In this document: positions 37,322 to 59,575 of the stretch, in pieces
How positions within the stretch are numbered: the first letter of the stretch is position 1
How the letters are laid out: the number at the start of each line of letters is the position of its first letter
NCBI GenBank assembly: GCA_043799715.1
Contig: JAZDNM010000007.1
Span: 21,265 to 85,264, forward strand
DNA length: 64,000 nucleotides
Reading direction: 5' to 3'
Source: an archaeon
Lineage (GTDB): Archaea; Nanobdellota; Nanobdellia; Pacearchaeales; DTIR01
The notes under the pieces: generated by a model
The model's database searches: none
Seen by the model: only the letters and a program-made list of their open reading frames with translations
Told to the model about the DNA's origin: nothing
Made by a program: the position numbers and the translations under genes

Positions 37322-38209
37322 ATGGATGCGATTTTTTTTGCTGATGTTCTGCTCGCTTCAATAGCCCTTATCTGGCTTTTTGCCGCGGCTATTCAGGACA
37401 TGAAAAAAAGAGAGGTTGCAAACTGGCTGAATTTCTCGCTTGTTGCAATTGCGCTTGCAATAAGGGCGATTGTGTCTGTTGTTTCATCTGATGCAGGATA
37501 TTTCATTTATGGAATTGCAATGACTCTGATTTTTTTTGCAATAGCAAACCTGTTCTATTACGCCAGAATTTTTGCAGGAGGCGACGCCAAAATGCTTGTA
37601 GCCCTCGCAGCTGCATTTGCAACAACTCCTGTTTTTGTCTCAAGCAGCGTAACATCAATAGGAAATATCCAGATTCCATTTATGGCGGTGTTTGTGCTTA
37701 ATATGCTGTTCGCCGGCTCTGTTTACGGGATTTTATGGAGTGCTGCCCTCGCAGCAAAGAACTTTAAAGAATTCATAAAAGAATTCAAAAAATCCAGCAG
37801 ACAAAACAGGCTTGTAAGAATAATCTTCTTTCTGCTTTTTGCTATTGTGCTTTTAATCTGCTTTTATGTAAAGGACATAATTCTGCTGATTATCGCCCTT
37901 TTGGCGCTGGCATTTCCCTACTTGCTGATTTTTGTCAAGGCTGTTGAGAATTCATGCATGGTAAAAAGCATCAAGGCATGCCAGCTTTCAGAAGGGGACT
38001 GGCTTTACAAAGCAGTGAAAATCGGAAAAAAGAGCATAATGCCAAGATGGGAAGGGCTTAACAATGCGGAAATATCACTGATAAAAAAATCAGAAATAAG
38101 AAGAGTGATGATAAAGCAGGGCATACCATTTGTTCCTGTTTTTCTTCTTGCGCTTATAATAAGCTTCTTCGCAAATTTGCTTGTTGTTCTTGTTGGTATT
38201 ATCGGATAA
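37322..38209 (+). CDS. Archaeal prepilin/preflagellin peptidase (A24 family, PibD/FlaK/EppA-like)
   Basis: A polytopic membrane protein with the two catalytic Asp contexts AAIQDMKKREV and AGGDAKML. A CTTATAAAT box sits at -28. Confidence 0.8.
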   Translation: MDAIFFADVLLASIALIWLFAAAIQDMKKREVANWLNFSLVAIALAIRAIVSVVSSDAGYFIYGIAMTLIFFAIANLFYYARIFAGGDAKMLVALAAAFATTPVFVSSSVTSIGNIQIPFMAVFVLNMLFAGSVYGILWSAALAAKNFKEFIKEFKKSSRQNRLVRIIFFLLFAIVLLICFYVKDIILLIIALLALAFPYLLIFVKAVENSCMVKSIKACQLSEGDWLYKAVKIGKKSIMPRWEGLNNAEISLIKKSEIRRVMIKQGIPFVPVFLLALIISFFANLLVVLVGIIG

Positions 38210-39663: not shown

Positions 39664-40650
39664 TTATTCTTTATCCGGCTCATCCTTGATGCCGGCTGCA
39701 GTTATGTAAAAAATATTCTCTGATTCCGGAAGATTTGGGGAATCAATAACTTTCACAACCCGTGAATTCTGTTTTCCGCGCCTCATATACAGCCTCAGTG
39801 TTGAGGCATGCGCAAGGATATGCCCTCCGATTGCCCTTGTAGGGTCGCCAAACATTACTGACGGGTCAGCCATAACCTGGTTTGTCACATAAACCGCAAC
39901 ATTATACTGCTCTGCCATTCTTATAATCTCATGGAGATGCCTGTTTAATTTCTGCTGCCTGTCTGCAAGCATGCCCCTGCCTGCAAATTCCGCCCTGAAA
40001 TGGGCAGTCAAACTGTCAATTATAACAAGCTTGATTGGCTCCCCCTTCTTGATCATCTCTGTAATTTTATCGAATAATAATATCTGGTGGTCTGAATTGA
40101 ATGCTCTTGCCACAAAAATATTCTTCATAACCTTTTCAGGGTTCATTCCCCTTGCTTCTGCAATCTGCTTTATTCTTTCTGGCCTGAAAGTGCCTTCAGA
40201 ATCAATGTACACTGCCTTGCCGTCTGCGCCGCCTTCTTTATTAGGCAGCTGGACATTTACTGCAAGAGTATGCGCAAGTTGGGTTTTGCCAGAGCCATAG
40301 GCTCCGTAAACCTCTGTTATCGCTTTTGTCTCAATCCCCTTGCCGCCAAGAAGTATGTCAAGATTTTTGCACCCTGTTGTAATTGTCAGAAGTTCAGCCC
40401 TTTTCTTCATGTATTCTGAAGCGTCTTCAAAATCCAGATTCAGCATTTTCCTTGAAGCCTGGATTGCTTTTCTTGCAACAGCTTCGCTAATTCCTGAAAT
40501 ATTGGAAAGTTCAGTAGGACCCAATACTGCTAGATTCATAAGTTCAGTCACGCCAGCCCCCTCAAGCTTTGCTGCTATCGCAGGGCCTATGCCCGGCAGG
40601 TCAGTGATTTTAAAGCCGTCTTTCTTATTTTCCTTTTCAGATTCAGCCAT
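39664..40650 (-). CDS. radA: DNA repair and recombination protein RadA
   Basis: An HhH N-terminal domain is followed by Walker [10 protein letters not shown] and Walker B LVIIDSL. The ATG at 40650 has TTTATAAAT at -29, whereas the ORF-track start at 40656 is TTG. Confidence 0.95.
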
Positions 40651-40703
40651 GACCAAAAAAAGGGCTTTTCATTTATAAATTTAGTTCTTTTGGGATATAT
40701 CAG

Positions 40704-42187: not shown

Positions 42188-42916
42188 TCAAATGCTGAAC
42201 CTTACTTCAATATTCCTGTATTCTTCATTTATGAAATATCTGCTTTTGCTTTTCATTGTTATTGATTTCATGTCTATTTCAGAAATTTCCCCTGTTTCTA
42301 TATTAAAACTGCCAAGATTCATGCACAATGCAATATCCTCCTTGGCTTTGCACTCATCTGCCTTCTGCCAGATTTCCTGGAATGAAGCAAGATTAATATC
42401 CTCCAAGTCAACAGCAAAAGAGGATTTGAAATCAAGCATAAAAGAGTACCCAAAAACACCCTTGACGCTTCCCTTCAGCTCAATCTCGTTAGAATCAAAA
42501 TTAATTATCTTATCTTTAATGCTGGCTTTGTATTTTATTTTGTTAAAATCAGGATTATAATAGAGAGAATTTATCTCATTCATTCTTTCTCCTATATCTG
42601 TTGCAAATTCCTCATCAAAATTTCTTGTAAAATTGCAGAAATGCAAATACCCTGAATAAACCTTGCAGTCCTGTGGTGCAAATTTCCCTTCATCAGAAAT
42701 ATTCTGATAGGCATTTGCAACCGCAATCTTCGCAGCTTCTGCTGCGAATTCCCTGTAAACAGATATTTCTTCGTTCATCTTCAGCACTTTATCAGGAGGG
42801 GCAAACATTTCAGCAGCTCCTGTTTTTGCTGTAATAAACTTGAAAAGGGCATAACCGCAAAGCACGAAAACTGCGATAGTTATAAGCAGTGCGAAAATTG
42901 CAGCTTTCTTGTTCAT
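42188..42916 (-). CDS. Pilin-like protein (class III signal)
   Basis: N-terminus MNKKAAIFALLITIAVFVLCG. Its start overlaps the stop of the upstream gene as ATGA (42913-42916). Confidence 0.6.
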   Translation of the reverse strand: MNKKAAIFALLITIAVFVLCGYALFKFITAKTGAAEMFAPPDKVLKMNEEISVYREFAAEAAKIAVANAYQNISDEGKFAPQDCKVYSGYLHFCNFTRNFDEEFATDIGERMNEINSLYYNPDFNKIKYKASIKDKIINFDSNEIELKGSVKGVFGYSFMLDFKSSFAVDLEDINLASFQEIWQKADECKAKEDIALCMNLGSFNIETGEISEIDMKSITMKSKSRYFINEEYRNIEVRFSI

Positions 42917-43392
42917 GATTTTTCCTCCAGACATTTGCTGTCAACAGCAAGCATTGCTGTAACATCCTTATTTTTTGTTACAGGAAGAATTATCATTACT
43001 GTATTCCCAATATATGCTGTATTGCCTGACTTGATTCCCGCTGCCTCAAAAAAATAACAGCTTCCAAAAGGCTTGAATATTTCTTCTGTTTTATTCTTCA
43101 CAATAGCATTTGACTCTATTGAATCAATCCTTATGATATCCGCAATTTCCGTTTCTATACCCTGAAATTCCACTTTTGTATCCAAAAATGCCTTTAATGA
43201 AATCATTGCCTGCTGTTTCCCGCTGTAAGCAAGATAAACATCTGAATTTTTCCTGAACTGGAATCCCGCGGCTATTGTGCTGAGATAAAAGAAAATCGCA
43301 ATTGTAAAGAAGATTAATAGAGTCGCGACTGTCAGTGCGACAGTTTCTCCAAGCTGCGCTTTTTTTGAAATTCTTATTTTTTGTCTTGTCAT
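42913..43392 (-). CDS. Pilin-like protein (class III signal)
   Basis: ...ISKKAQLGETVALTVATLLIFFTIAIFF. An ATGA overlap with the upstream gene lies at 43389-43392. Confidence 0.6.
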   Translation of the reverse strand: MTRQKIRISKKAQLGETVALTVATLLIFFTIAIFFYLSTIAAGFQFRKNSDVYLAYSGKQQAMISLKAFLDTKVEFQGIETEIADIIRIDSIESNAIVKNKTEEIFKPFGSCYFFEAAGIKSGNTAYIGNTVMIILPVTKNKDVTAMLAVDSKCLEEKS

Positions 43393-43853
43393 TCTGCCCC
43401 TTTTATCGTTGCGACAAACAAGTCGGCATAAATTCCATTACGGCTGACTGAATAGTATCTCTGGAGGAGGCATGCGGGCTTGGCTTTCATAGTAATCCCT
43501 TTAATCCTGCAGAGAATTTCTAAATCGCTGTTTCCAATTGAGAAGTTTTCGTATCCTGAAGTGATGCGGACATAACTCTCCTCCAAATCAATGTTCAAGC
43601 CGCATTTTTCTGCACTTAATGAAGAGATATCCTGAAGACTGCTGTCTTTTATCATGCAGCCGGCAACTCTTCCTGCAATAATTGCGGTTTCCATTTCCCT
43701 TGTGTCCACATTTCTTGAATAGAAAACATATGAAATCATTATCACTCCTACAACAATAACTATAATCAGGAAAAATCTGAATATCCATAAAATGCTGTCC
43801 CAGCCAAGCCTGTCAAGCGCCTTTTTCTCAATCAAAAATCTGCTGTTTGTCAT
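43389..43853 (-). CDS. Pilus-associated membrane-anchored protein
   Basis: 154 aa: ...EKKALDRLGWDSILWIFRFFLIIVIVVGVIM. It lies in the same operon. Confidence 0.5.
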   Translation of the reverse strand: MTNSRFLIEKKALDRLGWDSILWIFRFFLIIVIVVGVIMISYVFYSRNVDTREMETAIIAGRVAGCMIKDSSLQDISSLSAEKCGLNIDLEESYVRITSGYENFSIGNSDLEILCRIKGITMKAKPACLLQRYYSVSRNGIYADLFVATIKGAE

Positions 43854-43854
43854 T

Positions 43855-44226
43855 TTACTCCCAAACCTTTATTTTTATCTCATTGCCCTGCACTGATGTT
43901 TCAATCTGCCTTGCTGTTGAGAATGAATATTCATAAGGATGTGCTGCAATTTCTTTTGAGTTTACCTCAACCTTATTCCCCTTGAATGAAACAGTTAAAT
44001 TTTCAGTGTATACTGTGAATTCTGTGCCGGGCTCTGCAGAATCAACAAGCAGGGCAATTTCTTTTGCCAGAATCTGCTGCTTTGCAAGCGTGCCTGTTGA
44101 CGCATTTCTTATGAAAGCAAGCAGTACAAGAAAAATTATCAGGACAAAAACAATATAGATGATAAAAGACTGCAATTCCTCCATATCCCCTTTTTTTCCC
44201 TTCATAGCTTCCTGAATGATGTGCAA
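43855..44226 (-). CDS. Pilin-like protein (class III signal)
   Basis: MKGKKGDMEELQSFIIYIVFVLIIFLVLLAF, counting from an internal Met at 44205. Confidence 0.55.
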   Translation of the reverse strand: MHIIQEAMKGKKGDMEELQSFIIYIVFVLIIFLVLLAFIRNASTGTLAKQQILAKEIALLVDSAEPGTEFTVYTENLTVSFKGNKVEVNSKEIAAHPYEYSFSTARQIETSVQGNEIKIKVWE

Positions 44227-44236
44227 TTAATAAATC

Positions 44237-45094
44237 TTATGGGATACTTTCTATGTTCGTGCAGCCAACCTCTCTTATGTCTTGGGGATTATATTCCACA
44301 AGATACAGCGAAGCGAGATAATCAGAGCCCTTTCCTCCTGAAAACATGTCTGCAATTATCTTTTTCCATTTATCTTGAAGTGCTCCCCCAATCGCTCCGC
44401 CGATTATAAGCCCTACTCCTGCACCGATTGTAGTTCCTGGACCGGGAATAATGCTGCCTATTACAGCCCCTACTTTTGCGCCTATCCATCCCCCCTCTCC
44501 GACAGCAAGCCAGTTGGATAATAATTCATTCTTGAAAAATGAGAAGACAACCACATATTCCTCATTAGTATCTATCACTTCCCCTGTGCCTACAACCTCT
44601 GGACTATCTAAATTGGAAAAATACTGCAAGTAAGTTATATTGCTTGTCGGCAGTTTCTCAACAGCAAGATATTCCTTGAAATCATTAATCTTGAGATTTT
44701 TTGCATCCTTGTCAAATTTTATTGTTGAGCATATAAGGCAGTAATTCTTCTTGAAAAGCCCTGCTGAAAAGAAATTCAATTTGCCTTCTCCCAGCATCCA
44801 CCAGCAGTCGTGCATTGCATTTGCAATCCTGCTTTTTATGGCATTCTCATCATCCTGAGTAAGGAGTATTTTTTCTGTCCTGCATTTTAATGGCAGTCCT
44901 GCCCTCAAAGGAGCTCCCACAATTGTAGGCAGGCTTCTCATCAAAACAGACTGATGGCATGCCTCCCTGTCAATAAAGTCGGTTGTTCTTGAATTGTAAA
45001 TGTATAGAAACCAGAATATAACTGATGCAACAATGATTGTGATGATTATGCCTACAAGCACCTCTGCTTCTATGCCTTTTTTGTTGAATTTCAT
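44237..45094 (-). CDS. Pilin-like protein (class III signal), Gly-rich C-terminus
   Basis: MKFNKKGIEAEVLVGIIITIIVASV. The start at 45094 has GGAG upstream, and the ORF-track start at 45148 adds an implausible Cys-rich leader. Confidence 0.55.
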   Translation of the reverse strand: MKFNKKGIEAEVLVGIIITIIVASVIFWFLYIYNSRTTDFIDREACHQSVLMRSLPTIVGAPLRAGLPLKCRTEKILLTQDDENAIKSRIANAMHDCWWMLGEGKLNFFSAGLFKKNYCLICSTIKFDKDAKNLKINDFKEYLAVEKLPTSNITYLQYFSNLDSPEVVGTGEVIDTNEEYVVVFSFFKNELLSNWLAVGEGGWIGAKVGAVIGSIIPGPGTTIGAGVGLIIGGAIGGALQDKWKKIIADMFSGGKGSDYLASLYLVEYNPQDIREVGCTNIESIP

Positions 45095-45201
45095 TTTACA
45101 AAAATCTCCTGAGCAGATACCACAATGAGGAAAAGAGCACTGCAGCAAAAACTATCCAGAGGATTACCCTTATCAATGTTTCCTGTTGGAGTGATGCTTT
45201 T

Positions 45202-45714
45202 TTATTTTTCTTTATTCGCAATCCAAACATGATATTTATCCTCCTCATTAGTAATGCCCAGTTTAAGCAAATTTATCTTTTCTGCGAGATTGCCAGTCCA
45301 GGTTTTCAGGGGTTTTGGAAATTCCCTGCATGCGGAGTTTTTTGTGCAGTCAGCAGAATCCCTGCATAGGCATAGGCATACTTTGTCCGTGCATTCTGCC
45401 TTTCTTTTTACTTCAGTGTCCCTTAATCCGACAACAGGATTGCTGTATTTGTCAAAAGATAGAATCCACCATCCTGCAGGAGCATACACAAGCACAGGAC
45501 TTGGCGTTGACTCGCCAATACCCAGCATATCCACAGTGTTATATAATTCCTCAAGAGTTCCCTGAGCCTGAAGCACTTCCTTCTGTGTCGAGAAAAAAAT
45601 TGAGGAAAGGGAAGAGCCAAGATAAAGAAGGGGGATAATGCAAAGAATGCCCACTATCAAGCCGATAACAAATTTCAGCAGTCCTCTTTTGCCGCCTAAT
45701 AATCTTCTGGGCAT
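45202..45714 (-). CDS. Pilin-like or pilus-associated protein
   Basis: MPRRLLGGKRGLLKFVIGLIVGILCIIPL. It has its own TTTAAATAA box at -29. Confidence 0.55.
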   Translation of the reverse strand: MPRRLLGGKRGLLKFVIGLIVGILCIIPLLYLGSSLSSIFFSTQKEVLQAQGTLEELYNTVDMLGIGESTPSPVLVYAPAGWWILSFDKYSNPVVGLRDTEVKRKAECTDKVCLCLCRDSADCTKNSACREFPKPLKTWTGNLAEKINLLKLGITNEEDKYHVWIANKEK

Positions 45715-45763
45715 AGCAAGAAAAACAAAAAGAATTATTTAAACTTTTGCGATTTCCCGCTTG

Positions 45764-46165
45764 CTAGCCAATCATCGCTGTGCATGCCTGTGTTTTGAGA
45801 ATATCTGTGCAGTCTATCCCGCATATGATATTATATCCCTCTTCCTTAAGCCCATTGCATGTTTTTTTCTCAGGATTCTTTGGATCAGATATCACAACGC
45901 TTTTTTTCTCACAGCAGTACACTGTGTTAAGCTGGGCAAGGCAGTTGGCATTGCATGTGCTTATCACTGCATCTATGCTGTCTATTGCAGGGGTAAAAAC
46001 ATTGATTTTTTCCCAAAGATTTGTCCAGCCCATTGTGAATCCCAATGTAACAACAAGCAGCACAAGAACAGCAAGTATGACAACAACAATAGTCCCAATG
46101 GTTGTCTCAGCCCCTCTTTTATTTTTCAGCATTTTTCCTCTTTTTGTTTTAAACTCCTGCTCCAT
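45764..46165 (-). CDS. Pilin-like protein (class III signal)
   Basis: ...MLKNKRGAETTIGTIVVVILAVLVLLVV. An alternative start is at 46132. Confidence 0.6.
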   Translation of the reverse strand: MEQEFKTKRGKMLKNKRGAETTIGTIVVVILAVLVLLVVTLGFTMGWTNLWEKINVFTPAIDSIDAVISTCNANCLAQLNTVYCCEKKSVVISDPKNPEKKTCNGLKEEGYNIICGIDCTDILKTQACTAMIG

Positions 46166-46217
46166 CGCCCATTTTATGCTCCTTGTCCACCCATTTTTTA
46201 ACCGCCGCTTGTCGGCT

Positions 46218-46418
46218 TCATTCCCTTATCAATGCCCTTGTATTTTTAAACCTTTTTGTCCCAAACATCAAAATTGCTGTTCCCAGAACCTCGCTGCCTA
46301 TTCCTGAGAAATACTGCTTGAGATAATTGTTCCAGAAAAGGAAAAGCGCTGATGCAACAACAACAATCACAAGCAGGATGAGTACCACTTTTATTATTGT
46401 ATCAATTGTTATTTCCAT
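46218..46418 (-). CDS. Small hydrophobic pilus-locus protein
   Basis: 66 aa: MEITIDTIIKVVLILLVIVVVASALF. Confidence 0.45.
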   Translation of the reverse strand: MEITIDTIIKVVLILLVIVVVASALFLFWNNYLKQYFSGIGSEVLGTAILMFGTKRFKNTRALIRE

Positions 46419-46419
46419 A

Positions 46420-46572
46420 TTATCTGCCGAACCTGAACAGGTTGCTCACTTTTTCTATCAAATCTGCGCCCTTTGATTTCAGGAGCATAATTCCCAACCC
46501 AACAATTGCAAGAACAAGCAAAGCAATAATCCATTTTGCAAGAGTTTCAAAAGCAATGCCTTTTTTGTTCAT
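46420..46572 (-). CDS. Small pilin-like protein (50 aa, unannotated in ORF track)
   Basis: My translation is MNKKGIAFETLAKWIIALLVLAIVGLGIMLLKSKGADLIEKVSNLFRFGR. A TTTATTAAC box sits at -29. This is the first gene of the operon. Confidence 0.55.
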   Translation of the reverse strand: MNKKGIAFETLAKWIIALLVLAIVGLGIMLLKSKGADLIEKVSNLFRFGR

Positions 46573-46647
46573 TGTTTCAGAAGGCATAAATTGTTAATAA
46601 ACTTAACTCTCACAAAAATTTTTAAGTTGCAATCTCCTTGAAATCAA

Positions 46648-48324
46648 ATGGGAAAATTGAGGAAACTTGCTGTTCTGGGCATAGCAGCGGGCATGCTTCT
46701 CGCTCCAATCAGGCATTCAAATGCAGAAATCCTGCAGAAAACTTATACGCAAGACAGCAGGCAGACCAAAATTCAGATTGACACAGAGAAAAAGGAATTC
46801 AGAACCGAGCCGGATATGGATGAAGGGAAAGCAAGGGAGATTCTGTCTCTTGCGCTTCTTGAACAGATTGTCTACGAAACAGAACCCAAAAACAAAGATC
46901 TAAGCAAAAAAACAGAGGAATTCTTCTGGAAAAATCCAAGCGAGATGCTGATGAGATTTTCAGAGCCAATAGGAACTACTTCAAAGAATATAGCAGAATT
47001 CAAGCCATTTGACATTCCAAAACTGGACATCAATGTGATTAAAACTGGGAATGAACTTGGCTTGAATTTCAAGCTGCAGTCTCCGGATTACTCTTTCAGA
47101 TGGGGCAAGAGCAGCAGCATAGGCATTTTTTATCCCAAAGGCACAAGAATAACAAGAAAAGTGGATGAAGCATACGTGCTTGCAGACAGCAAGGACAATC
47201 TTGGCTTCAGAAAAACAGAGACAGATAAATGGAATGATGAAAGAGAGGCTTATGGAAAGCTTGCAGAAGCAGCAGTAAAATATGGCTTAAACAAGGCAGA
47301 GAAAAATCCGCTTGGAGTGATGCTGTCCTTGGGAATAAAAATTGAGAATCTTCTGGAAGAGGATGAAAAATCAAGAAGGGAAGAAATTGCATCTGCACTG
47401 AAGGAAAAATATAACTGGATATCCTACAGCCCTGCTGATTTCTTTGCAACTCCTGAGCAGGGCAGGCTGATAAGAATAAATTTTGATGGCAGGCCTGAAA
47501 GCTTTGCATTCTTCATAAATTCAGATGTTGAATTGAACATATCAGAATACGGCACGCAGACAAAGAAATCAGGAAATTTAGCCAGCATTACGGGAATTGA
47601 AATGAAAAAGGAGAATGTCTTGAAAAAAACTTCTGCAGGCAGAATTATCGGGCAGTCACTGCTTGTTTCACAGCGCCTTGATGGATACATTGAAGAATAC
47701 AAAAAAAATAGAAGATTAGGGAAGCTAAATTCAAAAGAAAAACATGATCTTTATGAAAATATCAGCTTATGGAAAGCGCAGCTTGAACCTTTTCTTGATA
47801 TGCTCAACAAAATTACGAACAAGCAGCTGGGCAGCAGCCTTGAGGAAGTGGCAGAGTATAATACCTTTAGAAAAAAATCAGAAACCTTGACTGAAAAAAT
47901 ATTCTCGCTTAATCAGGCCTCAAACAGCTATACTTTCCTCTCAAAATACAGCAAAGGAGACAAGGAAAAAATTCTTGAACTGTTTGACAGGGAGCTCAAA
48001 GCGCTGAATGAGAATAATTTTGAGTTATATTCAAGCTGTTTTACAAAGAATGTGCTAAAATCAAAACAACTAAGCTCTATGAAAGAGTTTGACAGCAGAA
48101 AGAAGACGGGAGCTGAAGAAAACTGGGAAATTGAAAATGTTTCTATCAATGGATGGCTGGCTATCGTAAACATGAAATACTTCTACAGAGATGAATCCCA
48201 ATCGCTTGAGATGAGATATAGCGTAGATCTCGCAAAGGAAAACAGCGAATGGAAGGATATGGGGAGAAATAAGATAATCGAGAGCCTGCGCCCAATATCA
48301 CGCCAGCCCTCCGGTAGCAACTGA
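46648..48324 (+). CDS. Hypothetical secreted protein
   Basis: 558 aa with a Sec-type signal (MGKLRKLAVLGIAAGMLLAPIRHSNA). No catalytic motif is recognised. Confidence 0.6.
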   Translation: MGKLRKLAVLGIAAGMLLAPIRHSNAEILQKTYTQDSRQTKIQIDTEKKEFRTEPDMDEGKAREILSLALLEQIVYETEPKNKDLSKKTEEFFWKNPSEMLMRFSEPIGTTSKNIAEFKPFDIPKLDINVIKTGNELGLNFKLQSPDYSFRWGKSSSIGIFYPKGTRITRKVDEAYVLADSKDNLGFRKTETDKWNDEREAYGKLAEAAVKYGLNKAEKNPLGVMLSLGIKIENLLEEDEKSRREEIASALKEKYNWISYSPADFFATPEQGRLIRINFDGRPESFAFFINSDVELNISEYGTQTKKSGNLASITGIEMKKENVLKKTSAGRIIGQSLLVSQRLDGYIEEYKKNRRLGKLNSKEKHDLYENISLWKAQLEPFLDMLNKITNKQLGSSLEEVAEYNTFRKKSETLTEKIFSLNQASNSYTFLSKYSKGDKEKILELFDRELKALNENNFELYSSCFTKNVLKSKQLSSMKEFDSRKKTGAEENWEIENVSINGWLAIVNMKYFYRDESQSLEMRYSVDLAKENSEWKDMGRNKIIESLRPISRQPSGSN

Positions 48325-50433
48325 AGCAAGCAGCGATAATGCAGTTATGGCTATGAATGCGACAAGTGCATAAAGCATCATGCCAAACTTGAGATTTCTT
48401 GATATCTGAGCTTTCTCGCTTAACTCATCAATGCCTGACTCTACCTTCACAAGCGTTCCTGTGAGGATGAATATTATCTCAATTATGTAAAATCCAACAA
48501 CGATCTGCAGAAAATATGGAGGGATCATTGTGGTTATGTCAAACATGCTTGTCAGCTGGGACGCTGTCTCAATGCCTGCGAGGCCCTCTGTGCCCTGCAC
48601 TGACATCATAAGCTCAAGCTTGTTGAGAATTGTTGTTATCATCACTGCAAGCCCTGTGACAATGCCTGCGAGCACAGGCGCGAGGAATGTCATATTGCTG
48701 CGCATATCAGAGACAATCTCTGCAAGAAGGTCCTGCAGCCTTTCATTTATCTTGTTTATATTCTTGATATACTGCGATATGCTCATCAGCGCCCTTGCTG
48801 CTACCTGCAATCCCTTCTTGACTGCCTCAACCATAATCTGCATTGAAGTTTTTACAAGTTCAGAGGGGTAATACACAATCGCTCCTCTTTTAGGATTGAA
48901 TATTGCATTCTCAAGCGACATGCCAACCTGATTTATGTTCAGATTAACAGTCCTGAAAAAATTCTCTGTTTTTGTTCCGCGGACAGATTCTGACACTCTC
49001 CCGAATGCAATTTCTGCAGGAACCCCGTCGCCAAGGCGGTTGCCAAGCTGAAAAAGCGATGATGCAAATTCCTGCTCAAGCTCTTTTGTCTCAGTTCTTG
49101 TTTTTATCAGCTGTGATGTTTTCAGGTTGTAGACTGTTGAAAAGAACAGGGCTACGCCCAAAGGAATAAGAAGACTGAGAATTGCAGAACCAAGTCCAAA
49201 CGGACCTGTAACAATCCCCGCTGTTTCCTTGAAATCAAAAAACTTTGCGTTGCCCAAAAGAGGCATTGCAAAATCTTTTTCCATGCCAAGAAGCCCAGGC
49301 AGTCCTGTATACTGGAATAAAAGAGGCAGAAGCCCTGCAAGGATCATTGGAACAGAAATAAGGCATGCCATCAGATAAGGCTGCTTTGACTTATAGAGAT
49401 AATAATCAGGATTTTGTTCAAGAAGTTCTGTTTCACCGTAGCCGCCAGGACGTTTGCTTAGAACGCTGCTTGTCATGTAAAAAACAAAAAATGGCACAAT
49501 GAGATTAAAGAGAATCATCACATGATACCACTTTATTGCGCCCTGAAGAAGTGTTGATGCAAGAGGCAGGAGCGCAAGGGCAAGGGTAGGCAGGACAATC
49601 CCGAGCATATAAAGATTAGTCAGGGGTGTTGTGACATCATGAGTAAATCTCAGCATTCTTTCGTAAACCCCATTGAGTATGACATCAAGTGCTTTTTCAA
49701 GAGTTGCTGTTCTGCTTGTCTCGCTTGGCTCATATAATGAACTTTCAATGAGATGGAATGCCTCAATGAACTCGGTGGAATATCCTCTCCACGACTCAAG
49801 ATATGCATCAAGGCTTTCCTTCAGTGTTGAATATCTTCCAATCTCAACATCCCAGAATATTTTTTTGAAATCAAGGGCAAGAGGCGGCTGCAAATGCTCT
49901 GATGCAAACTTGACAGCTCTTTCAAGATTGCTTGTGTGCCTCATGTAAACCACAACATAAAGGATTGCAGGAACCATCTGCGAGCTTGCCTTTAATCTCC
50001 ACGCCTCTGCAATCCTGTCAGGAGCTGTAACTGAAAAATAAAACAGGAACATGGAAGTGAAGAACATAAGGAAAAAGGCAAGAAATGAAAAACTGTTTGT
50101 CGCGAGAAATATCCCTACAAGCATTACAACAGAAATAAATAATCCTGTCAGGAGCACAAGCGTTGAGAATGCCATCACATCGCTTGGAGTGATATCAAGA
50201 TGCGCTGTCTCAAGATTTTTTCTTATTCTCTCGTCATCAGCTTTCTTGACTTTTATTTTTATAATGCCCCCGACATTCTTGCACAGTCTCTCAAATCTTG
50301 AAAGATTGGGCATTGACTCCTCTTTGAACTGCTTGTATTCCTTGCTATATTCAACATTCACCTCACTCATTATCTCTGATTCTATCTTGCTTCCATACTT
50401 CTTCAGAATATCGTCAACTTTTTTCTCAGCCAT
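48298..50433 (-). CDS. Polytopic membrane platform protein of a type IV pilus/archaellum-like system (FlaJ/TadC-like)
   Basis: About 711 aa from MAEKKVDD, with many TM helices. It lies immediately downstream (13 nt) of the secretion ATPase, the standard partner arrangement. Confidence 0.6.
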   Translation of the reverse strand: MAEKKVDDILKKYGSKIESEIMSEVNVEYSKEYKQFKEESMPNLSRFERLCKNVGGIIKIKVKKADDERIRKNLETAHLDITPSDVMAFSTLVLLTGLFISVVMLVGIFLATNSFSFLAFFLMFFTSMFLFYFSVTAPDRIAEAWRLKASSQMVPAILYVVVYMRHTSNLERAVKFASEHLQPPLALDFKKIFWDVEIGRYSTLKESLDAYLESWRGYSTEFIEAFHLIESSLYEPSETSRTATLEKALDVILNGVYERMLRFTHDVTTPLTNLYMLGIVLPTLALALLPLASTLLQGAIKWYHVMILFNLIVPFFVFYMTSSVLSKRPGGYGETELLEQNPDYYLYKSKQPYLMACLISVPMILAGLLPLLFQYTGLPGLLGMEKDFAMPLLGNAKFFDFKETAGIVTGPFGLGSAILSLLIPLGVALFFSTVYNLKTSQLIKTRTETKELEQEFASSLFQLGNRLGDGVPAEIAFGRVSESVRGTKTENFFRTVNLNINQVGMSLENAIFNPKRGAIVYYPSELVKTSMQIMVEAVKKGLQVAARALMSISQYIKNINKINERLQDLLAEIVSDMRSNMTFLAPVLAGIVTGLAVMITTILNKLELMMSVQGTEGLAGIETASQLTSMFDITTMIPPYFLQIVVGFYIIEIIFILTGTLVKVESGIDELSEKAQISRNLKFGMMLYALVAFIAITALSLLASVATGGLA

Positions 50434-50446
50434 CTTCCCTCTTTTT

Positions 50447-52738
50447 TTAGATTCTTTTTTTCCTGATTTCCCTGTTAAGCCATTCTTTCCATTCCCTGAA
50501 AACTTTCTTGCTTTCAGGCAGACCAATCTCTTCTCTTACTGTATCAGAAAGGTGATGGAATGCATTGTTGCTTGCGACATTAAACTCCGCTTCAAGAAGC
50601 TCAGGCATTTTCAATTTTTCAGCTGTATCTACAATCTCCTGCTTTATGTTCGCTCTGAGCATTATATTATCCCAGACAGCATCCCAATTGCCCGCCCATC
50701 CTTTCACATTCGCAGCGATTGATTTTATTATTTCGCTCTCGCCTGTAATCAAGTCAGGAGTTGCTTCAAGCTCATCGGTCTGGACATTGTATTTCATTAA
50801 GTCTACAAATCCGCGCTCTTCAATAGGGTCTCTTGTCCAGTGCTTTCTCACTTCTGTAATGGAAAACATCCTTCTCCATGAATGCATTCCGTCTGCTGAC
50901 TTTATTGGGTTCACAATAGTAATCAAATCAGTTGCCTTGAAGCTTGTTATAGGGACTTGCAAATCATTGACAACTCTGTCAAAAACACCGTAAGGCGAAG
51001 CGCCGTGCACTGTTCCAGCCACAACATTTGCCAATGCTCCAACTCTCATTGCCTCATACAATGCTTTTGCCTCTGTGCTTCTTATTTCCCCGAGAATAAG
51101 GCAGGAATCGCCAAGCCTTAATGAAGTCCTTATCCCTTCATCAGCAGGAACCTCTGTTGTTTCTTTCAGCAATGCCGCCCTTACTTTCATTCTTAGAATA
51201 TCATACCCTAATTTCCTTAATGAATCCACAGGCAGTTCAAGAGTATCTTCAAGCACTATCATTCTGTACTTCGACATTATCTCAAGCAGCAAAGCCCCAA
51301 GCAGCGAGGTTTTTCCCGCGCTTCTCGTGCCGGCGACAAGCATTGTCCTTGACCCGTCAATCATGAAGCTTAGCAATCCCGCAGAAAGTGAATTGAGCAT
51401 CTTGTTCTTGATAAACAATGGCAGTGTCCACGGGCTTTCTCTGTGCCTCCTGAATGCATATGCAAGCCCGTATGGGCTGAGCGGCTGCTGTATTATCGCA
51501 ACTCTCGCCCTTACATTCCCAAGAGACAAGTCCGTGTCAAGTATGGGATTTGCCTCATCAAGAGGCCTGCCTGAAAGCATCCTGAATTTTGCAGCCCATG
51601 AATTTGCATCCTCGACACTCGGCATTATATTCGTGTAGCATTCGTCAAATTCAGCATGCCTGACAAATATCGCTGTCTGCCCTGCAGGGGAATTCATGAC
51701 AACATCCTGCAGCTTGTCATCCTGAAGCAGCACTTCAATAAGCCCGAAGCCGATTGTGTGCCTTACAAGAATTGTTGCAAGCTTGTTGAGCTGCCTGTAT
51801 GAGATTTTTATTTTCTTGTTTTCAGACAGCTCCTGAAGCAAGTCCCTTGATATGGAGAAAAACACCTGCCTTGTTCTTTCAGGATCTGTGAATTCCTCTG
51901 CCTTGGGCCTGTGCTCAATAAGGACATTCCTTGCAAGATTTAGGAGCATGTAATAATCTTCTCTCAACTGGAATTCAGGGGGAACAATATGGTAAAGGAA
52001 TTTTGGCTGGTTTGGCAGGCGGAGTATTGTAACTATGCTCCTATCATAGCCTGAAACAACCTCATACTGGCTGACAATCTCGCTGTCTTCAGGAAATGAA
52101 GCTGAAAGCCGCGTGAATGTGAAGTTGGGAATTACATCCGGGCTGAATATTCTTGAATAAACATCCCTGCTGCCTATGTGATATGCGTCTATAAACGGCT
52201 TTGTTTGTTTTATCATCCTTGTGTCTTCAAGCATCCGCATTATTCTCTCAAGAAGCATAAGATAATTATCCTCGCATTTCTTGCATGACTCCGGAAGTTT
52301 CTCTGCATTTATCCTCTCTTCTCTCAAAAGCCTTTTTGCTTCCACATAGCACCCAATAGGATCCTGCTTCAGCAATGTGAGAATAAGATAATTCAGGGAG
52401 TTGTATCTCTGCGGCAGGCATTTCTTGCATTCAAAAGGAGCAAGTTTCTCTACACTTAAGATTCTCTCCTGCTTGATTAAATGAGTGTAAAGCTGCGCGA
52501 TTTCAACAAGCATTGATACCTGCGAAAAATCATAGCTGTAATTTCTCTGCTGGACAAAAACAATCCTTGAAACTCTAGGTGATTCAACAAGCGAATCTAT
52601 TGTCCGCGACATGCAGACAGAAGAGTCAGCAAGACTCGGGACTATTGTTGCGCCAAGGTAATTGACATACATTATGTCTTCGCCTGCTTCCCTTATTATT
52701 TCAAAATCGTACAAAGCTGTGTCTGGCTTGAAAATCAT
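50447..52738 (-). CDS. Type II/IV secretion-family ATPase (FlaI/PilB/VirB11-like)
   Basis: Walker A VAGTRSAGKTSLLGAL, IVLEDTLEL, and GEIRSTEAKALYEAMRVG...AGTVHG. It has a large N-terminal extension. Confidence 0.8.
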   Translation of the reverse strand: MIFKPDTALYDFEIIREAGEDIMYVNYLGATIVPSLADSSVCMSRTIDSLVESPRVSRIVFVQQRNYSYDFSQVSMLVEIAQLYTHLIKQERILSVEKLAPFECKKCLPQRYNSLNYLILTLLKQDPIGCYVEAKRLLREERINAEKLPESCKKCEDNYLMLLERIMRMLEDTRMIKQTKPFIDAYHIGSRDVYSRIFSPDVIPNFTFTRLSASFPEDSEIVSQYEVVSGYDRSIVTILRLPNQPKFLYHIVPPEFQLREDYYMLLNLARNVLIEHRPKAEEFTDPERTRQVFFSISRDLLQELSENKKIKISYRQLNKLATILVRHTIGFGLIEVLLQDDKLQDVVMNSPAGQTAIFVRHAEFDECYTNIMPSVEDANSWAAKFRMLSGRPLDEANPILDTDLSLGNVRARVAIIQQPLSPYGLAYAFRRHRESPWTLPLFIKNKMLNSLSAGLLSFMIDGSRTMLVAGTRSAGKTSLLGALLLEIMSKYRMIVLEDTLELPVDSLRKLGYDILRMKVRAALLKETTEVPADEGIRTSLRLGDSCLILGEIRSTEAKALYEAMRVGALANVVAGTVHGASPYGVFDRVVNDLQVPITSFKATDLITIVNPIKSADGMHSWRRMFSITEVRKHWTRDPIEERGFVDLMKYNVQTDELEATPDLITGESEIIKSIAANVKGWAGNWDAVWDNIMLRANIKQEIVDTAEKLKMPELLEAEFNVASNNAFHHLSDTVREEIGLPESKKVFREWKEWLNREIRKKRI

Positions 52739-58738: not shown

Positions 58739-59575
58739 TTATTGCGAATTCAGAGAGTCAAGAGGCGATTTTACTTTCCTCAATTCCTCTGATGAAATAT
58801 GAGTGTAAATCTGCGTTGTGCTCAAGTCAGCGTGCCCGAGCAATTCCTGAATTTTTCTTATGTCTGTGCCTGACTCAAGCAAATGTGTTGCAAATGAATG
58901 TCTCAATGTATGCGGCATAACTCTCTTGCCTATGCCTGCTTTCAACGCAGCTTTCTTGACTATTTTCTCTATGTTCCTTGTGGAGAGCATTCCTTTTGGC
59001 CCTGTGAAAAGCAGCTCTGCATTTTTATTTTTCTGCGCTTCAGCTTGCTGCCTGAGCTCCTCTGAAATTGATGCGGGGATATTGAAAAATCTGTCTTTTT
59101 TGCCTTTTGCCTGCCTGATATGCCCGGTTTTCTCATTGAAATCTATATCATTTATTTTAAGGCCGACAATCTCTGAAACCCTGAAGCCGCAGGCATATAT
59201 CATGCTTATCATCATCCTGCTCTTGGTGTTATTTATTGATGAAATCAGCTTCCGGACTTCGTCTATTGTAAGAACAATTGGAATGCGCTTCTCCCTTTTC
59301 GGCCTTTTTATCCCCGCTGTAATGTCCTTTCCAAGAATGTTGAAATACGCGTATTTCAGCGCAGAGAGAAACAGGATTGTGGTTGATGATGATTTATCCG
59401 CGAGTTTCTCTGCCATGAAAAACTTGACATCATCTTCCCTGATTTCATCTGGATTTTTCTTTGTGAAATCAATAATTGAAGAGTTAAAAAAAAGATAATT
59501 CCTTATTGTGTACCCGGAATTCTTGGAAATTTTCAGTTCTGTTTCAAGTTTCTTGAGAAATTCCTCTTTGTTCAT
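58739..59575 (-). CDS. xerA: Tyrosine recombinase XerA (XerC/D-like)
   Basis: ACGFRVSE...HTLRHSFATHLLESGTDIRKIQELLGHADLSTTQIYTH. Confidence 0.9.
   Translation of the reverse strand: MNKEEFLKKLETELKISKNSGYTIRNYLFFNSSIIDFTKKNPDEIREDDVKFFMAEKLADKSSSTTILFLSALKYAYFNILGKDITAGIKRPKREKRIPIVLTIDEVRKLISSINNTKSRMMISMIYACGFRVSEIVGLKINDIDFNEKTGHIRQAKGKKDRFFNIPASISEELRQQAEAQKNKNAELLFTGPKGMLSTRNIEKIVKKAALKAGIGKRVMPHTLRHSFATHLLESGTDIRKIQELLGHADLSTTQIYTHISSEELRKVKSPLDSLNSQ

What the first reader, a model, noticed from the sequence alone, without database searches (positions are those of the whole stretch)
42188..52738. Large type IV pilus-like locus: nine small pilin-like genes plus platform protein and ATPase
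Seen in the sequence: nine consecutive minus-strand genes lie at 42188-46572, including a 50-aa gene absent from the ORF track. Seven of them begin with K/R-K/R-G/A followed by a hydrophobic helix (NKKG-IAFETL, NKRG-AETTIG, GKRG-LLKFVI, NKKG-IEAEVL, GKKG-DMEELQ, SKKAQ-LGETVA, NKKA-AIFALL), and several are linked by ATGA overlaps. Across a divergent 558-aa secreted protein lie a secretion ATPase (Walker A GTRSAGKT; GEIRSTE...TVHG) and, 13 nt downstream, a polytopic membrane protein of about 711 aa. An A24 prepilin peptidase sits at 37322-38209. Established knowledge: an ATPase, a FlaJ/TadC-like platform, a peptidase and pilins constitute an archaeal type IV filament machine. Inference: nine candidate subunits is a high number, and together with the nearby giant hydrolase operon this suggests an attachment or attack apparatus rather than a motility archaellum. 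No FlaC-H-type accessory genes are seen.
Basis: partly seen in the sequence, partly recalled or inferred. Interest (0 to 1): 0.65.

Follow-up and report, generated by a model that had tools for sequence, protein, structure and literature searches.

The report
Conserved ten-pilin archaeal pilus locus
This is a real type IV pilus-like assembly machine (ATPase, membrane platform, signal peptidase and ten pilin-like genes) in a tiny DPANN archaeon; the same locus occurs in hundreds of related species, so it is typical of the group but has never been studied experimentally.

Summary
The minus strand at 42188-46587 carries ten tightly packed small genes, not nine. Nine of them, not seven, start with [KR][KR][G/A] followed by a hydrophobic helix.

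- **Core machine.** The upstream ATPase belongs to the FlaI/TadA/GspE2 family and has intact catalytic motifs. The 711-aa membrane protein is a very divergent GspF/TadC/FlaJ-type platform. The A24 peptidase keeps both catalytic aspartates.
- **Distribution.** The window comes from a Pacearchaeota/Woesearchaeota-type archaeon. The platform is found in at least 585 species genomes of that clade.
- **Conservation.** The ten small-gene families recur there, mostly as single copies, in nearly fixed order and with the cleavage motif retained. The peptidase usually lies directly after them. ATPase and platform are almost as conserved as RadA, whereas the pilin-like proteins evolve fast.
- **Closest known systems.** These are the Methanococcus Epd pilus and the bacterial Tad/Flp pilus. 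It is not an archaellum and not a VirB11 system.
Ten subunits is the norm for this clade, so the number is not a sign of an attack device. The only link found to the giant murein hydrolase is that its conserved 628-aa partner also carries a canonical class III signal peptide.

Verdict: a well-supported but predictable, uncharacterised type IV filament locus of moderate interest.

The parts
50447..52738 (-). Assembly ATPase (763 aa) of the FlaI/TadA/GspE2 family. It has a conserved N-terminal region of about 300 aa, in which residues 101-160 (with the CxxC pairs) are variable. Walker A is GTRSAGKT, Asp box EDTLE, Walker B LILGEIR, His box GTVHG.
   Evidence: Pfam T2SSE 2.4e-11. NCBIfam FlaI 2.8e-33, TadA 3.6e-33, VirB11 5.3e-14. 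PDB matches: afGspE 2oap 2.6e-19, CpaF 4.3e-17, FlaI 1.2e-11, VirB11 1.7e-4. Identity to orthologues is 58-85% (59-60 compared).
48298..50433 (-). Polytopic platform protein (711 aa). It is a single-gene, highly divergent GspF/PilC/TadC/FlaJ homologue.
   Evidence: No Pfam hit of its own. AF2 model with pLDDT 77.9. The only high-probability Foldseek matches are to the EpsF cytoplasmic domain (prob 0.96-0.99, TM 0.64-0.66). The remote full-length homologue P0261 (27% id, 6e-75) scores above threshold on Pfam T2SSF (7.6e-8). More than 4693 homologues, about 57% median identity.
46648..48324 (+). 558-aa protein with a Sec-type leader, lying between the platform and the pilin cluster on the opposite strand. 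It is a lineage-specific insertion and not a conserved part of the system.
   Evidence: No Pfam or PHROG family. A counterpart exists only in L001 (47% id) and one other locus; it is absent from L003 and L005.
46420..46572 (-). g1: 50-aa prepilin, MNKKG|IAFETLAKWIIALLVLAIV. The mature protein is about 45 aa with no globular domain and a conserved C-terminal NLFRFG. It is the candidate major, Flp/EpdE-like subunit.
   Evidence: Family found in 74 of 86 loci and usually the first gene after the platform; motif present in 71/79 members. A TATA-like box lies about 25 nt upstream of this ATG.
46218..46418 (-). g2: 66-aa protein that starts directly with a hydrophobic helix (MEITIDTIIKVVLILLVIVVV). 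It has no leader here; orthologues are usually about 250 aa and often carry KKG/KKA.
45764..46132 (-). g3: 122-aa prepilin-like protein, MLKNKRG|AETTIGTIVVVILAVLVLLVV, with a Cys-rich head containing 5 invariant Cys. The family is often duplicated in relatives.
   Evidence: Motif in 97/98 members; 31 of 65 loci have 2 or more copies; alignment A3.
45202..45714 (-). g4: 170-aa pilin-like protein, GGKRG|LLKFVIGLIVGILCII, with a conserved Cys cluster (CLCxC...C...C).
   Evidence: Single copy in 66 loci; motif in 63/66.
45096..45248 (-). g5: 44-50-aa mini pilin-like protein, NKKA|SLQQETLIRVILWIVFAAVLF. It overlaps the 3' end of g4.
Evidence: Family in 55 loci, median length 39 aa.
44237..45094 (-). 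g6: 285-aa pilin-like protein, MKFNKKG|IEAEVLVGIIITIIV. It has a strongly conserved Cys domain (CHxSV...PLKCKT...DCW...GEGK) and, in this genome, a C-terminal glycine zipper.
   Evidence: Motif in 62/63 members; consensus. Gly-zipper PF13488 3.4e-7, but present in only about 25/63 orthologues. All database homologues are unnamed.
43855..44205 (-). g7: 116-aa pilin-like protein, MKGKKG|DMEELQSFIIYIVFVLIIF.
   Evidence: Family in 63 loci; motif in 56/64.
43389..43853 (-). g8: 154-aa pilin-like protein, EKKA|LDRLGWDSILWIFRFFLIIVIVVGV, with four conserved Cys.
   Evidence: Single copy in 61 loci; motif in 59/61.
42913..43392 (-). g9: 159-aa pilin-like protein, SKKA|QLGETVALTVATLLIFF. Gln at +1 occurs in 30 of 56 orthologues. 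It overlaps g8 by ATGA.
   Evidence: Single copy in 59 loci; motif in 56/59.
42188..42916 (-). g10: 242-aa pilin-like protein, MNKKA|AIFALLITIAVFVLCGYALF. It overlaps g9 by ATGA.
   Evidence: Single copy in 58 loci; motif in 57/58.
37322..38209 (+). A24 class III signal (prepilin) peptidase, 295 aa. Both catalytic Asp motifs are conserved (AIQD..REV and FAGGDAK), as is the C-terminal GIPF.P.F motif.
   Evidence: PF01478 1.1e-10; FlaK 3.3e-10. Among 41 orthologues, the 38 that share a locus with called pilin genes lie 109-1617 nt from the end of the pilin cluster, mostly on the same strand, with D and GGD at 90% or more. In this window the peptidase is displaced about 4 kb by RPA, YdjM, RadA, tRNA-Arg, EF1B and HIT.
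20049..21935 (-). Probable additional substrate of the peptidase, outside the locus. A 628-aa surface protein, MNTLKNKKA|QVTIFVIISVLIVGSVGLF, encoded 4 nt upstream of the 2392-aa SLT+amidase protein (12874-20052).
   Evidence: Motif scan. 96 of 120 homologues carry the class-III-like [KR]x[G/A] motif followed by a hydrophobic stretch, typically ...|Q[VI]T[IL]F[IV]I. The gene pair is conserved in L087-L089. AF2 plus Foldseek: N-terminal helix followed by Ig-like beta-sandwich domains, resembling SlaB and sortase pilins.

Best explanation
The locus encodes a complete archaeal type IV filament (TFF) machine of the Epd/Tad-like kind. It is a core, clade-wide organelle of Pacearchaeota/Woesearchaeota-type DPANN archaea.

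Proposed mechanism:
1. Ten pilin-like preproteins are inserted into the membrane.
2. The A24 peptidase removes their very short basic leaders (M-x-K-K-G/A|).
3. The single hexameric ATPase, docked on the 711-aa GspF/TadC-type platform, extracts the processed subunits from the membrane and polymerises them into a surface filament.
4. The tiny g1 protein (about 45 aa when mature and lacking a globular head, like Flp and EpdE) is the most likely bulk subunit, possibly together with the often-duplicated g3.
5. The single-copy g4-g10 proteins form the priming or tip complex, as minor pilins do elsewhere.

The most likely function is attachment to host cells or surfaces. No retraction ATPase was found in the window.

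Shown here: the family identity of ATPase, platform and peptidase; the conservation of the motif; and the gene order. Inferred: cleavage, filament formation, the assignment of major and minor subunits, and the adhesive function.
For: ATPase:
- T2SSE 2.4e-11.
- FlaI and TadA about 1e-33 against VirB11 5e-14.
- PDB matches GspE2, CpaF, FlaI.
- All catalytic boxes conserved in 60 orthologues.

Platform:
- EpsF-like cytoplasmic bundle by Foldseek, prob 0.96-0.99.
- End-to-end homologue P0261 with above-threshold Pfam T2SSF.

Peptidase:
- PF01478, with both catalytic Asp conserved.
- It sits right after the pilin cluster in 38 relatives.

Substrates:
- 9 of 10 genes carry [KR][KR][G/A] plus a helix, against 0.2 sites expected by chance.
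- In 58 related loci with enough flank, 44 have 4-11 such ORF starts within 8 kb downstream on the same strand. About 11 have the cluster divergently upstream. The background is near zero.
- There are ten orthologous families, mostly single copy, in the order g1-g2-(g3)-g4...g10-(g3), with the motif kept in 67-99% of members.

Distribution and constraint:
- At least 585 species genomes carry the platform.
- ATPase 64.5% and platform 56.8% median identity, against RadA 68.6%, DEAD helicase 55% and RPA 47%. The pilin-like proteins are at 25-45%, as expected for exposed subunits.

Literature:
- DPANN type IV pilus islands with unrecognisable pilins were predicted (PMC6393860).
- The Epd pilus has 11 genes and a headless major pilin (10.64898/2026.04.22.720090; EpdE mature mass 6.4 kDa, PMC4390842).
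- Pili-like appendages have been seen connecting ultrasmall cells to hosts (PMC7906910).
Against: - No experimental or expression data exist for any component.
- No pilin fold was demonstrated. No structure prediction was run on g1-g10, and a g3 profile finds nothing significant in the PDB.
- None of the ten families matches a Pfam, NCBIfam or PHROG pilin model.
- The platform's second T2SSF repeat is supported only weakly (P0226, E 0.078; no internal repeat by hhalign).
- Near-housekeeping conservation and a strictly single-copy gene set are unusual for a plain adhesion pilus. They could point to a more basic cell-envelope role.
- The identity of the major subunit is a guess based on size and gene position.
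Confidence: 0.68

Rival explanations
1. The same machine works as a short pseudopilus or surface-assembly device, in the manner of a T2SS or bindosome, rather than as a long adhesive pilus. In this view the ten pilin-like proteins form a fixed envelope-spanning scaffold. That scaffold anchors or exports other class-III-signal proteins, such as the 628-aa Ig-domain protein and, through it, the giant surface protein, which here carries SLT and amidase domains.
For: - ATPase and platform are conserved nearly as much as RadA, and nine of the ten pilin families are almost always single copy in fixed order. This is more like a structural complex than a variable adhesin set.
- A further conserved class III signal protein exists outside the locus, with a SlaB-like or Ig-like architecture, next to a 1769-2392-aa partner.
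- Class-III-signal binding proteins that functionalise TFF machines have been proposed for other archaea (10.64898/2026.04.22.720090).
Against: - No co-localisation: the pair lies 22 kb away in a ribosomal-protein/TFIIB neighbourhood.
- g1 resembles filament-forming Flp/EpdE subunits.
- No evidence exists for export of any substrate.
- The SlaB resemblance rests on generic beta-sandwich domains with low global TM scores (0.13-0.18).
Confidence: 0.15
2. The main role of the filament is DNA uptake, supplying nucleotides or enabling transformation in an organism with minimal biosynthesis. The parallels are Com pili of monoderm bacteria and the Epd pili of Methanococcus.
For: - Epd-type pili are essential for natural transformation in M. 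maripaludis (PMC10133366).
- The locus is flanked by RPA, RadA, Nre and a DEAD/Hef-like helicase in the window and in relatives.
- The set of one major plus many minor pilins resembles Com systems.
Against: - The neighbourhood is not DNA-specific. EF1B, HIT and YdjM are linked to the locus about as often as RPA.
- No ComEC/ComEA-like or nuclease gene was found among the window ORFs scanned.
- No DNA-binding motif was identified in any pilin.
Confidence: 0.1
3. The locus encodes an archaellum, that is, a rotary motility filament.
For: The ATPase scores 2.8e-33 against the FlaI model and the peptidase matches FlaK.
Against: - The FlaI score of 115 bits is far below the model cutoff of 550 and equal to the TadA score.
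- No archaellin, FlaF/G, FlaH or FlaC-E/X family was hit in the window ORFs scanned.
- The ATPase has about 185 extra N-terminal residues.
- The candidate major subunit has no head domain.
Confidence: 0.02
4. The locus encodes a conjugative or type IV secretion ATPase system of the VirB11/TrbB type.
For: Weak hits to TrbB (7.9e-16) and VirB11 (5.3e-14; PDB 2gza 1.7e-4).
Against: - These hits are 17 or more orders of magnitude weaker than those to FlaI, TadA and GspE2.
- No VirB4, VirD4 or relaxase was found among the ORFs scanned.
- The partner protein is a GspF-type platform and the neighbours are class III signal proteins.
Confidence: 0.01

Closest known systems
Epd pilus of Methanococcus maripaludis (archaeal TFF 'system 1')
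   Same: - A monoderm archaeal type IV filament with a FlaI/TadA-type ATPase, a TadC-like platform and a dedicated A24 peptidase.
- A long operon of many class-III-signal proteins (11 genes).
- A very small major pilin without a globular head (EpdE, 6.4 kDa mature).
- Basic leaders ending in K-G/A, often with Q at +1.
- System 1 is reported in some DPANN archaea (10.64898/2026.04.22.720090; PMC4390842).
   Different: - Epd has two platform genes (EpdJ and EpdK); here there is one 711-aa gene.
- Here the ATPase has a conserved N-terminal region of about 300 aa.
- None of the ten pilin families is detectably similar in sequence to known pilin models.
- The peptidase is 295 aa, and its subtype (EppA-like or PibD/FlaK-like) was not resolved.
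- Function has been tested only in Methanococcus (adhesion and transformation).
Bacterial Tad/Flp pilus (CpaF/TadA, TadB/TadC, Flp, TadE/F pseudopilins, TadV)
   Same: - CpaF is among the best structural-database matches of the ATPase (4.3e-17), and TadA matches at 3.6e-33.
- One homologue of the platform is named TadB by JGI.
- g1 is Flp-sized.
- There is no retraction ATPase.
   Different: - No secretin or outer-membrane parts (RcpA, TadD), as expected for an archaeon, and no TadZ.
- The Flp G|xxxxEY motif is absent; g1 has G|IAFET.
- Ten pilin-like genes instead of three or four.
Archaellum (FlaI/ArlI, FlaJ/ArlJ, FlaK, archaellins)
   Same: The ATPase, platform and peptidase belong to the same superfamilies.
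   Different: - No archaellins, FlaF/G, FlaH or FlaC-E/X.
- Extended ATPase N-terminus.
- Headless candidate major subunit.
DPANN type IV pilus 'dark matter' islands predicted by Makarova, Wolf and Koonin 2019 (PMC6393860, Fig. 2A)
   Same: The same idea: in DPANN genomes a recognisable ATPase and TadC are accompanied by runs of unannotated small proteins with signal peptides, which were predicted to be divergent pilins.
   Different: That paper gives a general prediction for example loci. Whether its example belongs to this family could not be checked, because the figure is not held. The clade-wide ten-family organisation and the degree of conservation shown here are not described there.
Com pseudopilus of monoderm bacteria (ComGA-GG)
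   Same: - A single-membrane cell.
- One ATPase, one platform, one major and several minor pilins in one operon.
- A dedicated A24 peptidase.
   Different: - Bacterial GspE/PilB-type ATPase (ComGA only 2.6e-9).
- Five pilins rather than ten.
- A DNA-uptake partner (ComEC/ComEA) is known there and was not found here.

Membership tests
Type IV filament (TFF) superfamily machine | PilB/GspE/FlaI/TadA-family ATPase with Walker A, Asp box, Walker B and His box | tested here: met
   PF00437 2.4e-11. FlaI and TadA about 1e-33. PDB matches GspE2, CpaF, FlaI. GTRSAGKT, EDTLE, LILGEIR and GTVHG are conserved in 60 orthologues.
Type IV filament (TFF) superfamily machine | Polytopic GspF/PilC/TadC/FlaJ-family platform protein (T2SSF domains) | tested here: met
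   The protein itself has no Pfam hit. Homologue P0261 (27% id over the full length, 6e-75) has T2SSF at 32.8 bits, above the 25.2 cutoff. The AF2 model matches the EpsF cytoplasmic domain with prob 0.96-0.99. The second repeat is only weakly supported.
Type IV filament (TFF) superfamily machine | A24 aspartic prepilin peptidase with two catalytic Asp | tested here: met
   PF01478 1.1e-10. The D of 'QD..REV' and the 'FAGGDAK' motif are conserved at 90% or more in 41 orthologues, which usually lie adjacent to the pilin cluster.
Type IV filament (TFF) superfamily machine | Substrates with a class III signal peptide: a short basic leader ending in G/A, followed by a hydrophobic helix | tested here: met
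   9 of 10 genes in the window have it, against 0.2 sites expected by chance. The motif is conserved in 67-99% of orthologues of each family. Actual cleavage was not tested.
Type IV filament (TFF) superfamily machine | Subunits adopt the pilin fold (N-terminal helix packed on a beta-sheet head, or helix-only Flp type) and polymerise | not tested
A g3 profile against the PDB gave nothing significant. Polymerisation cannot be tested with these tools.
Archaellum | Archaellins (PF01917) plus FlaF/FlaG, FlaH and FlaC-E or FlaX | tested here: not met
   None of these families was hit by the ORFs of the window that were scanned or listed for genes of L001, L003 and L005.
Epd pilus / archaeal TFF system 1 | Two separate platform genes (EpdJ/EpdK type) | tested here: not met
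   A single 711-aa platform gene is present here and in all relatives examined. It may correspond to a fusion, but no internal repeat was detectable.
Epd pilus / archaeal TFF system 1 | Major pilin lacking a globular domain (arCOG06620 type) and an EppA-type peptidase (arCOG02300) | tested here: inconclusive
   g1 is headless and of similar size (about 45 aa against about 60 aa), but no arCOG library was available to test homology. The peptidase subtype was not resolved.
Bacterial Tad/Flp pilus | Flp prepilin with the G|xxxxEY motif; TadZ, RcpA secretin, TadD | tested here: not met
   g1 reads KKG|IAFETL, with no EY at +5/+6. No secretin or TadZ family was hit in the ORFs scanned.
VirB11-type T4SS / conjugation | VirB11/TrbB ATPase together with VirB4, VirD4 and VirB6 | tested here: not met
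   VirB11 5.3e-14 and TrbB 7.9e-16 against 1e-33 for FlaI and TadA. PDB VirB11 1.7e-4. No VirB4 or VirD4 among the window ORFs scanned.

The most novel reading that the evidence does not exclude
The ten-pilin machine, its A24 peptidase, and the class-III-signal 628-aa Ig-domain protein with its giant partner (which here ends in SLT and amidase murein-hydrolase domains) form one functional host-interaction organelle that is close to essential for Pacearchaeota and Woesearchaeota. In this reading a filament or pseudopilus positions a peptidoglycan-cutting surface complex against a bacterial host. In lineages where g6 carries a glycine zipper, it may also insert into the host membrane. That would explain the RadA-like conservation of the motor, and it would give a molecular basis for the 'pili extending into the host' seen by cryo-TEM.
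Probability: 0.1. Interest if true: 0.8.

Novelty: new member of a known kind. Interest (0 to 1): 0.42.

Why it matters
Pacearchaeota and Woesearchaeota are among the most abundant uncultured archaea in groundwater and sediments, and how they attach to or feed on hosts is unknown. This locus is present in at least 585 species genomes, and its motor proteins are constrained almost as strongly as RadA, which makes it a leading candidate for their cell-cell contact organelle. Eleven of its thirteen conserved components are annotated only as hypothetical proteins. Defining the ten pilin families, the divergent platform and the probable extra substrate beside the giant murein hydrolase provides concrete targets for several approaches: metaproteomics, to look for cleaved N-termini and to see which subunit is abundant; heterologous peptidase assays; and cryo-ET. 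The finding does not overturn anything, because type IV pili in DPANN archaea were already predicted.

Tried and rejected
- **Source contig.** An exact-sequence look-up of the window's ATPase found no record.
- **Platform against PDB sequences.** The profile gave nothing (best E 1.2).
- **Internal duplication of the platform.** hhalign of its two halves gave no signal (E 0.26), so a 'fusion of two TadC-like genes' remains unproven.
- **Whole-chain Foldseek E-values for the platform.** These are poor (0.4 or worse). Only the local EpsF hits have high probability.
- **Unrestricted iterative HMM searches with each small protein.** These drifted across families through the shared leader and helix. 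They were replaced by best-family assignment.
- **Glycine zipper of g6 as a conserved membrane-piercing element.** Rejected as a general feature. It occurs in about 25 of 63 orthologues and is absent from the closest relative L001. The PHROG 'tape measure' hits cover only this low-complexity segment.
- **CxxC pairs in the ATPase N-terminus as a conserved zinc site.** Rejected, because residues 101-160 are not conserved.
- **DNA-repair neighbours as evidence for a competence role.** The linkage is not specific.
- **g3 profile against PDB.** Only an insignificant match to the N-terminal helix of an archaeal 'Flagellin' chain (8fk7, E 0.52) and to a designed coiled coil.
- **628-aa protein profile against PDB sequences.** Only spurious HisF fragments.
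- **g6 database search.** Only unnamed Pacearchaeota/Nanoarchaeia proteins were found.

Full report
**Origin of the window.** The sequence is archaeal. It contains RadA (39664-40656), RPA, TFIIB, SRP54/FtsY and EF1B. Several tRNA matches span 109-147 nt, which indicates introns. Homologues of the membrane platform protein are named Candidatus Pacearchaeota, Woesearchaeota or Nanoarchaeota. The closest is 85% identical and lies on a 591-kb Pacearchaeota scaffold. The window therefore comes from a DPANN archaeon of that clade.

**Check of the observation.** All the genes described are present. The ATPase (50447-52738, minus strand, 763 aa) carries GTRSAGKT, EDTLE, LILGEIR and GTVHG. The next gene starts 13 nt downstream at the ATG at 50433 and encodes a 711-aa polytopic protein. 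A 558-aa protein with a Sec-type leader lies on the plus strand at 46648-48324. The A24 peptidase is at 37322-38209 (PF01478, 1.1e-10).

The small-gene run holds ten genes rather than nine (g1-g10, 46587 down to 42188). Nine of them, not seven, have [KR][KR][G/A] followed by a hydrophobic helix. The gene g2 starts directly with the helix.

A six-frame scan of the whole window finds 9 distinct motif sites, 8 of them in this 4.4-kb stretch. Markov simulations expect 0.2, with a maximum of 2 in 100 runs. The genes are packed with 1-nt gaps or overlaps, except before g3 and g4.

**The motor.** The ATPase matches Pfam T2SSE. Against NCBIfam it scores FlaI 2.8e-33 and TadA 3.6e-33, but TrbB, BasE and VirB11 only 1e-14 to 1e-16. 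All scores are far below the family cutoffs, so it is a member of the superfamily and not of any named equivalog. In the PDB the best matches are Archaeoglobus GspE2 (2.6e-19), CpaF (4.3e-17) and FlaI (1.2e-11). VirB11 reaches only 1.7e-4. About 300 N-terminal residues precede the region that aligns with FlaI. Most of this region is conserved in 60 orthologues, but the CxxC-containing stretch at 101-160 is not.

**The platform.** The 711-aa protein has no Pfam, NCBIfam, PHROG or PDB sequence match, although it has more than 4693 homologues. Three lines of evidence place it in the GspF/PilC/TadC/FlaJ family:
- An AlphaFold model (pLDDT 77.9) has as its only high-probability Foldseek matches the cytoplasmic domain of EpsF (3c1q/2vmb, prob 0.96-0.99, target TM 0.64-0.66, about 120 columns). 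A PilC model follows at prob 0.35.
- A profile search of 1.84 billion representatives found 1249 relatives. Among the more distant full-length ones, P0261 scores above threshold on Pfam T2SSF (7.6e-8, 32.8 bits). Four others score 19-25 bits in the first half, and one scores weakly in the second half.
- P0261 aligns end to end with the window protein (27% identity, 6e-75). This maps the T2SSF domain to about residues 157-290.

A test for an internal duplication was negative.

**The peptidase.** Forty-one orthologues retain the two catalytic aspartates (QD..REV and FAGGDAK) and the C-terminal GIPF.P.F motif. In the 38 loci where it could be measured, the gene lies 109-1617 nt beyond the last pilin gene, mostly on the same strand. 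In this window it has been separated by about 4 kb of housekeeping genes.

**Conservation of the locus.** Among 58 fetched loci with at least 7 kb of downstream flank, 44 have 4-11 motif-bearing ORF starts within 8 kb downstream on the same strand. About 11 have the cluster divergently upstream. Almost no sites occur elsewhere.

Best-family HMM assignment defines ten families. Nine are essentially single copy per locus, and g3 is often duplicated. The dominant order is g1-g2-(g3)-g4-g5-g6-g7-g8-g9-g10-(g3). The motif is retained in 67-99% of members, for example g3 97/98, g6 62/63 and g10 57/58.

Median identity to the window protein is 64.5% for the ATPase and 56.8% for the platform. For comparison, RadA is at 68.6%, a DEAD helicase at 55%, RPA at 47% and EF1B at 43%. 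The pilin-like proteins are at 25-45%. The 558-aa protein is present in only two other loci and is a lineage-specific insertion.

**The subunits.**
- **g1** is about 54 aa (about 45 aa when mature). It consists of one hydrophobic helix and a short tail ending in a conserved NLFRFG. It is normally the first gene after the platform.
- **g5** is even smaller, about 39 aa.
- **g3, g4, g6 and g8** have conserved cysteine patterns, which fits extracellular disulfide-bonded heads.
- **g6** has the most conserved head (CHxSV...PLKCKT...DCW...GEGK). In this genome it also has a glycine zipper (PF13488, 3.4e-7), but this occurs in only about 25 of 63 orthologues.

A TATA-like box about 25 nt upstream of the ATG at 46572 suggests a leaderless g1 mRNA. 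Oligo-T tracts and a second TATA-like box between g3 and g4 may separate a g1-g3 unit from g4-g10. This is an inference only.

**Mechanism proposed.** The components and their linkage are those of a type IV filament machine. I infer the following sequence: the A24 peptidase removes the 5-12-residue basic leaders, and the ATPase on the platform then polymerises the processed subunits. On this model g1 (and perhaps g3) forms the bulk of the filament, and the single-copy g4-g10 act as a minor-pilin priming or tip complex. Adhesion to hosts or surfaces is the most likely function.

The closest studied systems are the following:
- The Methanococcus Epd pilus has an 11-gene cluster, a headless 6.4-kDa major pilin and a dedicated peptidase (10.64898/2026.04.22.720090; PMC4390842).
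- The bacterial Tad/Flp pilus is the other close relative.

Pili-like appendages linking ultrasmall cells to hosts have been imaged in groundwater (PMC7906910). Because Epd pili are required for natural transformation (PMC10133366), a DNA-uptake role cannot be excluded.

**What it is not.** It is not an archaellum: no archaellin, FlaF/G, FlaH or FlaC-E family was hit in any ORF scanned. It is not a VirB11-type system. It fails the 'two platform genes' criterion of system 1. Its relation to the other archaeal subsystems could not be tested, because no arCOG or MacSyFinder models were available.

**The hydrolase link.** The 2392-aa protein (12874-20052) does end in SLT (2.4e-15) and Amidase_3 (3.9e-55) domains. 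Such murein hydrolases are already reported for this clade (PMC9723730, PMC11537232). It lies 22 kb from the pilus locus. Its upstream partner (20049-21935) is the ninth motif site in the window. Ninety-six of 120 homologues carry the class-III-like [KR]x[G/A] motif, typically followed by Q[VI]T[IL]F[IV]I.

The pair (about 620 aa plus 1769-2392 aa) is conserved next to ribosomal-protein and TFIIB genes, but the hydrolase domains are present only in some relatives. An AlphaFold model of the partner (pLDDT 77.6) shows an N-terminal helix, an alpha/beta domain and several beta-sandwich domains. Foldseek matches sortase-pilin and adhesin Ig-like domains and the S-layer stalk SlaB.

The two loci therefore probably share the peptidase. 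That is the only evidence connecting them, and the pilus locus is conserved independently of the hydrolase.

**Novelty and verdict.** Type IV pilus islands with unrecognisable pilins in DPANN genomes were predicted in 2019 (PMC6393860), and DPANN loci appear in a 2026 census of archaeal TFF systems. The 2016 census contains no mention of Woesearchaeota or Pacearchaeota. The finding is therefore a new, well-documented member of a known kind. It has some distinctive traits:
- a single, very divergent platform gene;
- an extended ATPase;
- ten fixed pilin families;
- near-housekeeping constraint on the motor.

Interest is moderate, at 0.42. The most novel reading still open is a single A24-dependent host-attack organelle that combines the filament with the murein-hydrolase surface complex. 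I give it about 10%.

Noticed in passing
window 20049-21935 (-) and 12874-20052 (-): A 628-aa protein with a canonical class III signal peptide (NKKA|QVTIFVIISVLIV) is encoded 4 nt upstream of the 2392-aa SLT+Amidase_3 protein. The class-III-like motif is kept in 96 of 120 homologues. The pair is conserved in relatives next to S3Ae, L44 and TFIIB, but the hydrolase domains are present only in some. The AF2 model shows an N-terminal helix followed by Ig-like beta-sandwich domains resembling SlaB and sortase pilins. It may be a stalk plus giant canopy surface complex.
   Followed up: partly
window 34870-35988 (-): A 372-aa protein with no Pfam family starts MSGKNAQAAAAIIVIAALLLGALIF. This is a weaker class-III-like leader (K-N-A|Q plus helix), about 1.3 kb from the A24 peptidase gene. 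It could be another peptidase substrate.
   Followed up: no
window 8175-11418 (-): A low-GC stretch (0.30 at 8-10 kb) holds a GmrSD_N+HNH endonuclease, an EcoRI-type adenine methyltransferase (7.3e-133) and an IS-type DDE transposase. It is probably a mobile restriction-modification island inserted beside the giant surface-protein operon.
   Followed up: partly
window 45715-45766 and 46573-46660 (- strand): Oligo-T tracts and a TATA-like TTTAAATAA lie between g3 and g4. A TTTATTAA box lies about 25 nt upstream of the g1 ATG at 46572. Together these suggest a leaderless g1 transcript and a possible attenuation point after g3.
   Followed up: no
L003 9838-10017, L005 9828-10004, L001 8587-8757: In relatives, a gene of about 58 aa encoding a ribbon-helix-helix-like protein sits just upstream of, or overlapping, the platform gene (on the opposite strand in L001). 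It is absent from the window, where ATPase and platform are 13 nt apart. It may be a regulator of the locus.
   Followed up: no
L005 7378-9826; L001 9130-9867: The ATPase and platform genes are not always adjacent. An ABC transporter pair (L005) or a 245-aa membrane protein (L001) is inserted between them.
   Followed up: no
window 58739-59575 (-): A tyrosine recombinase (Phage_integrase, 5.6e-43) lies near the 3' end of the window. It may be XerA or part of an integrated element.
   Followed up: no
window 2296-2388, 12715-12861, 22023-22158, 23680-23797, 30314-30422: Five tRNA genes span 93-147 nt, which indicates introns. ARAGORN mis-reads two of them, while Rfam detects all of them.
   Followed up: no
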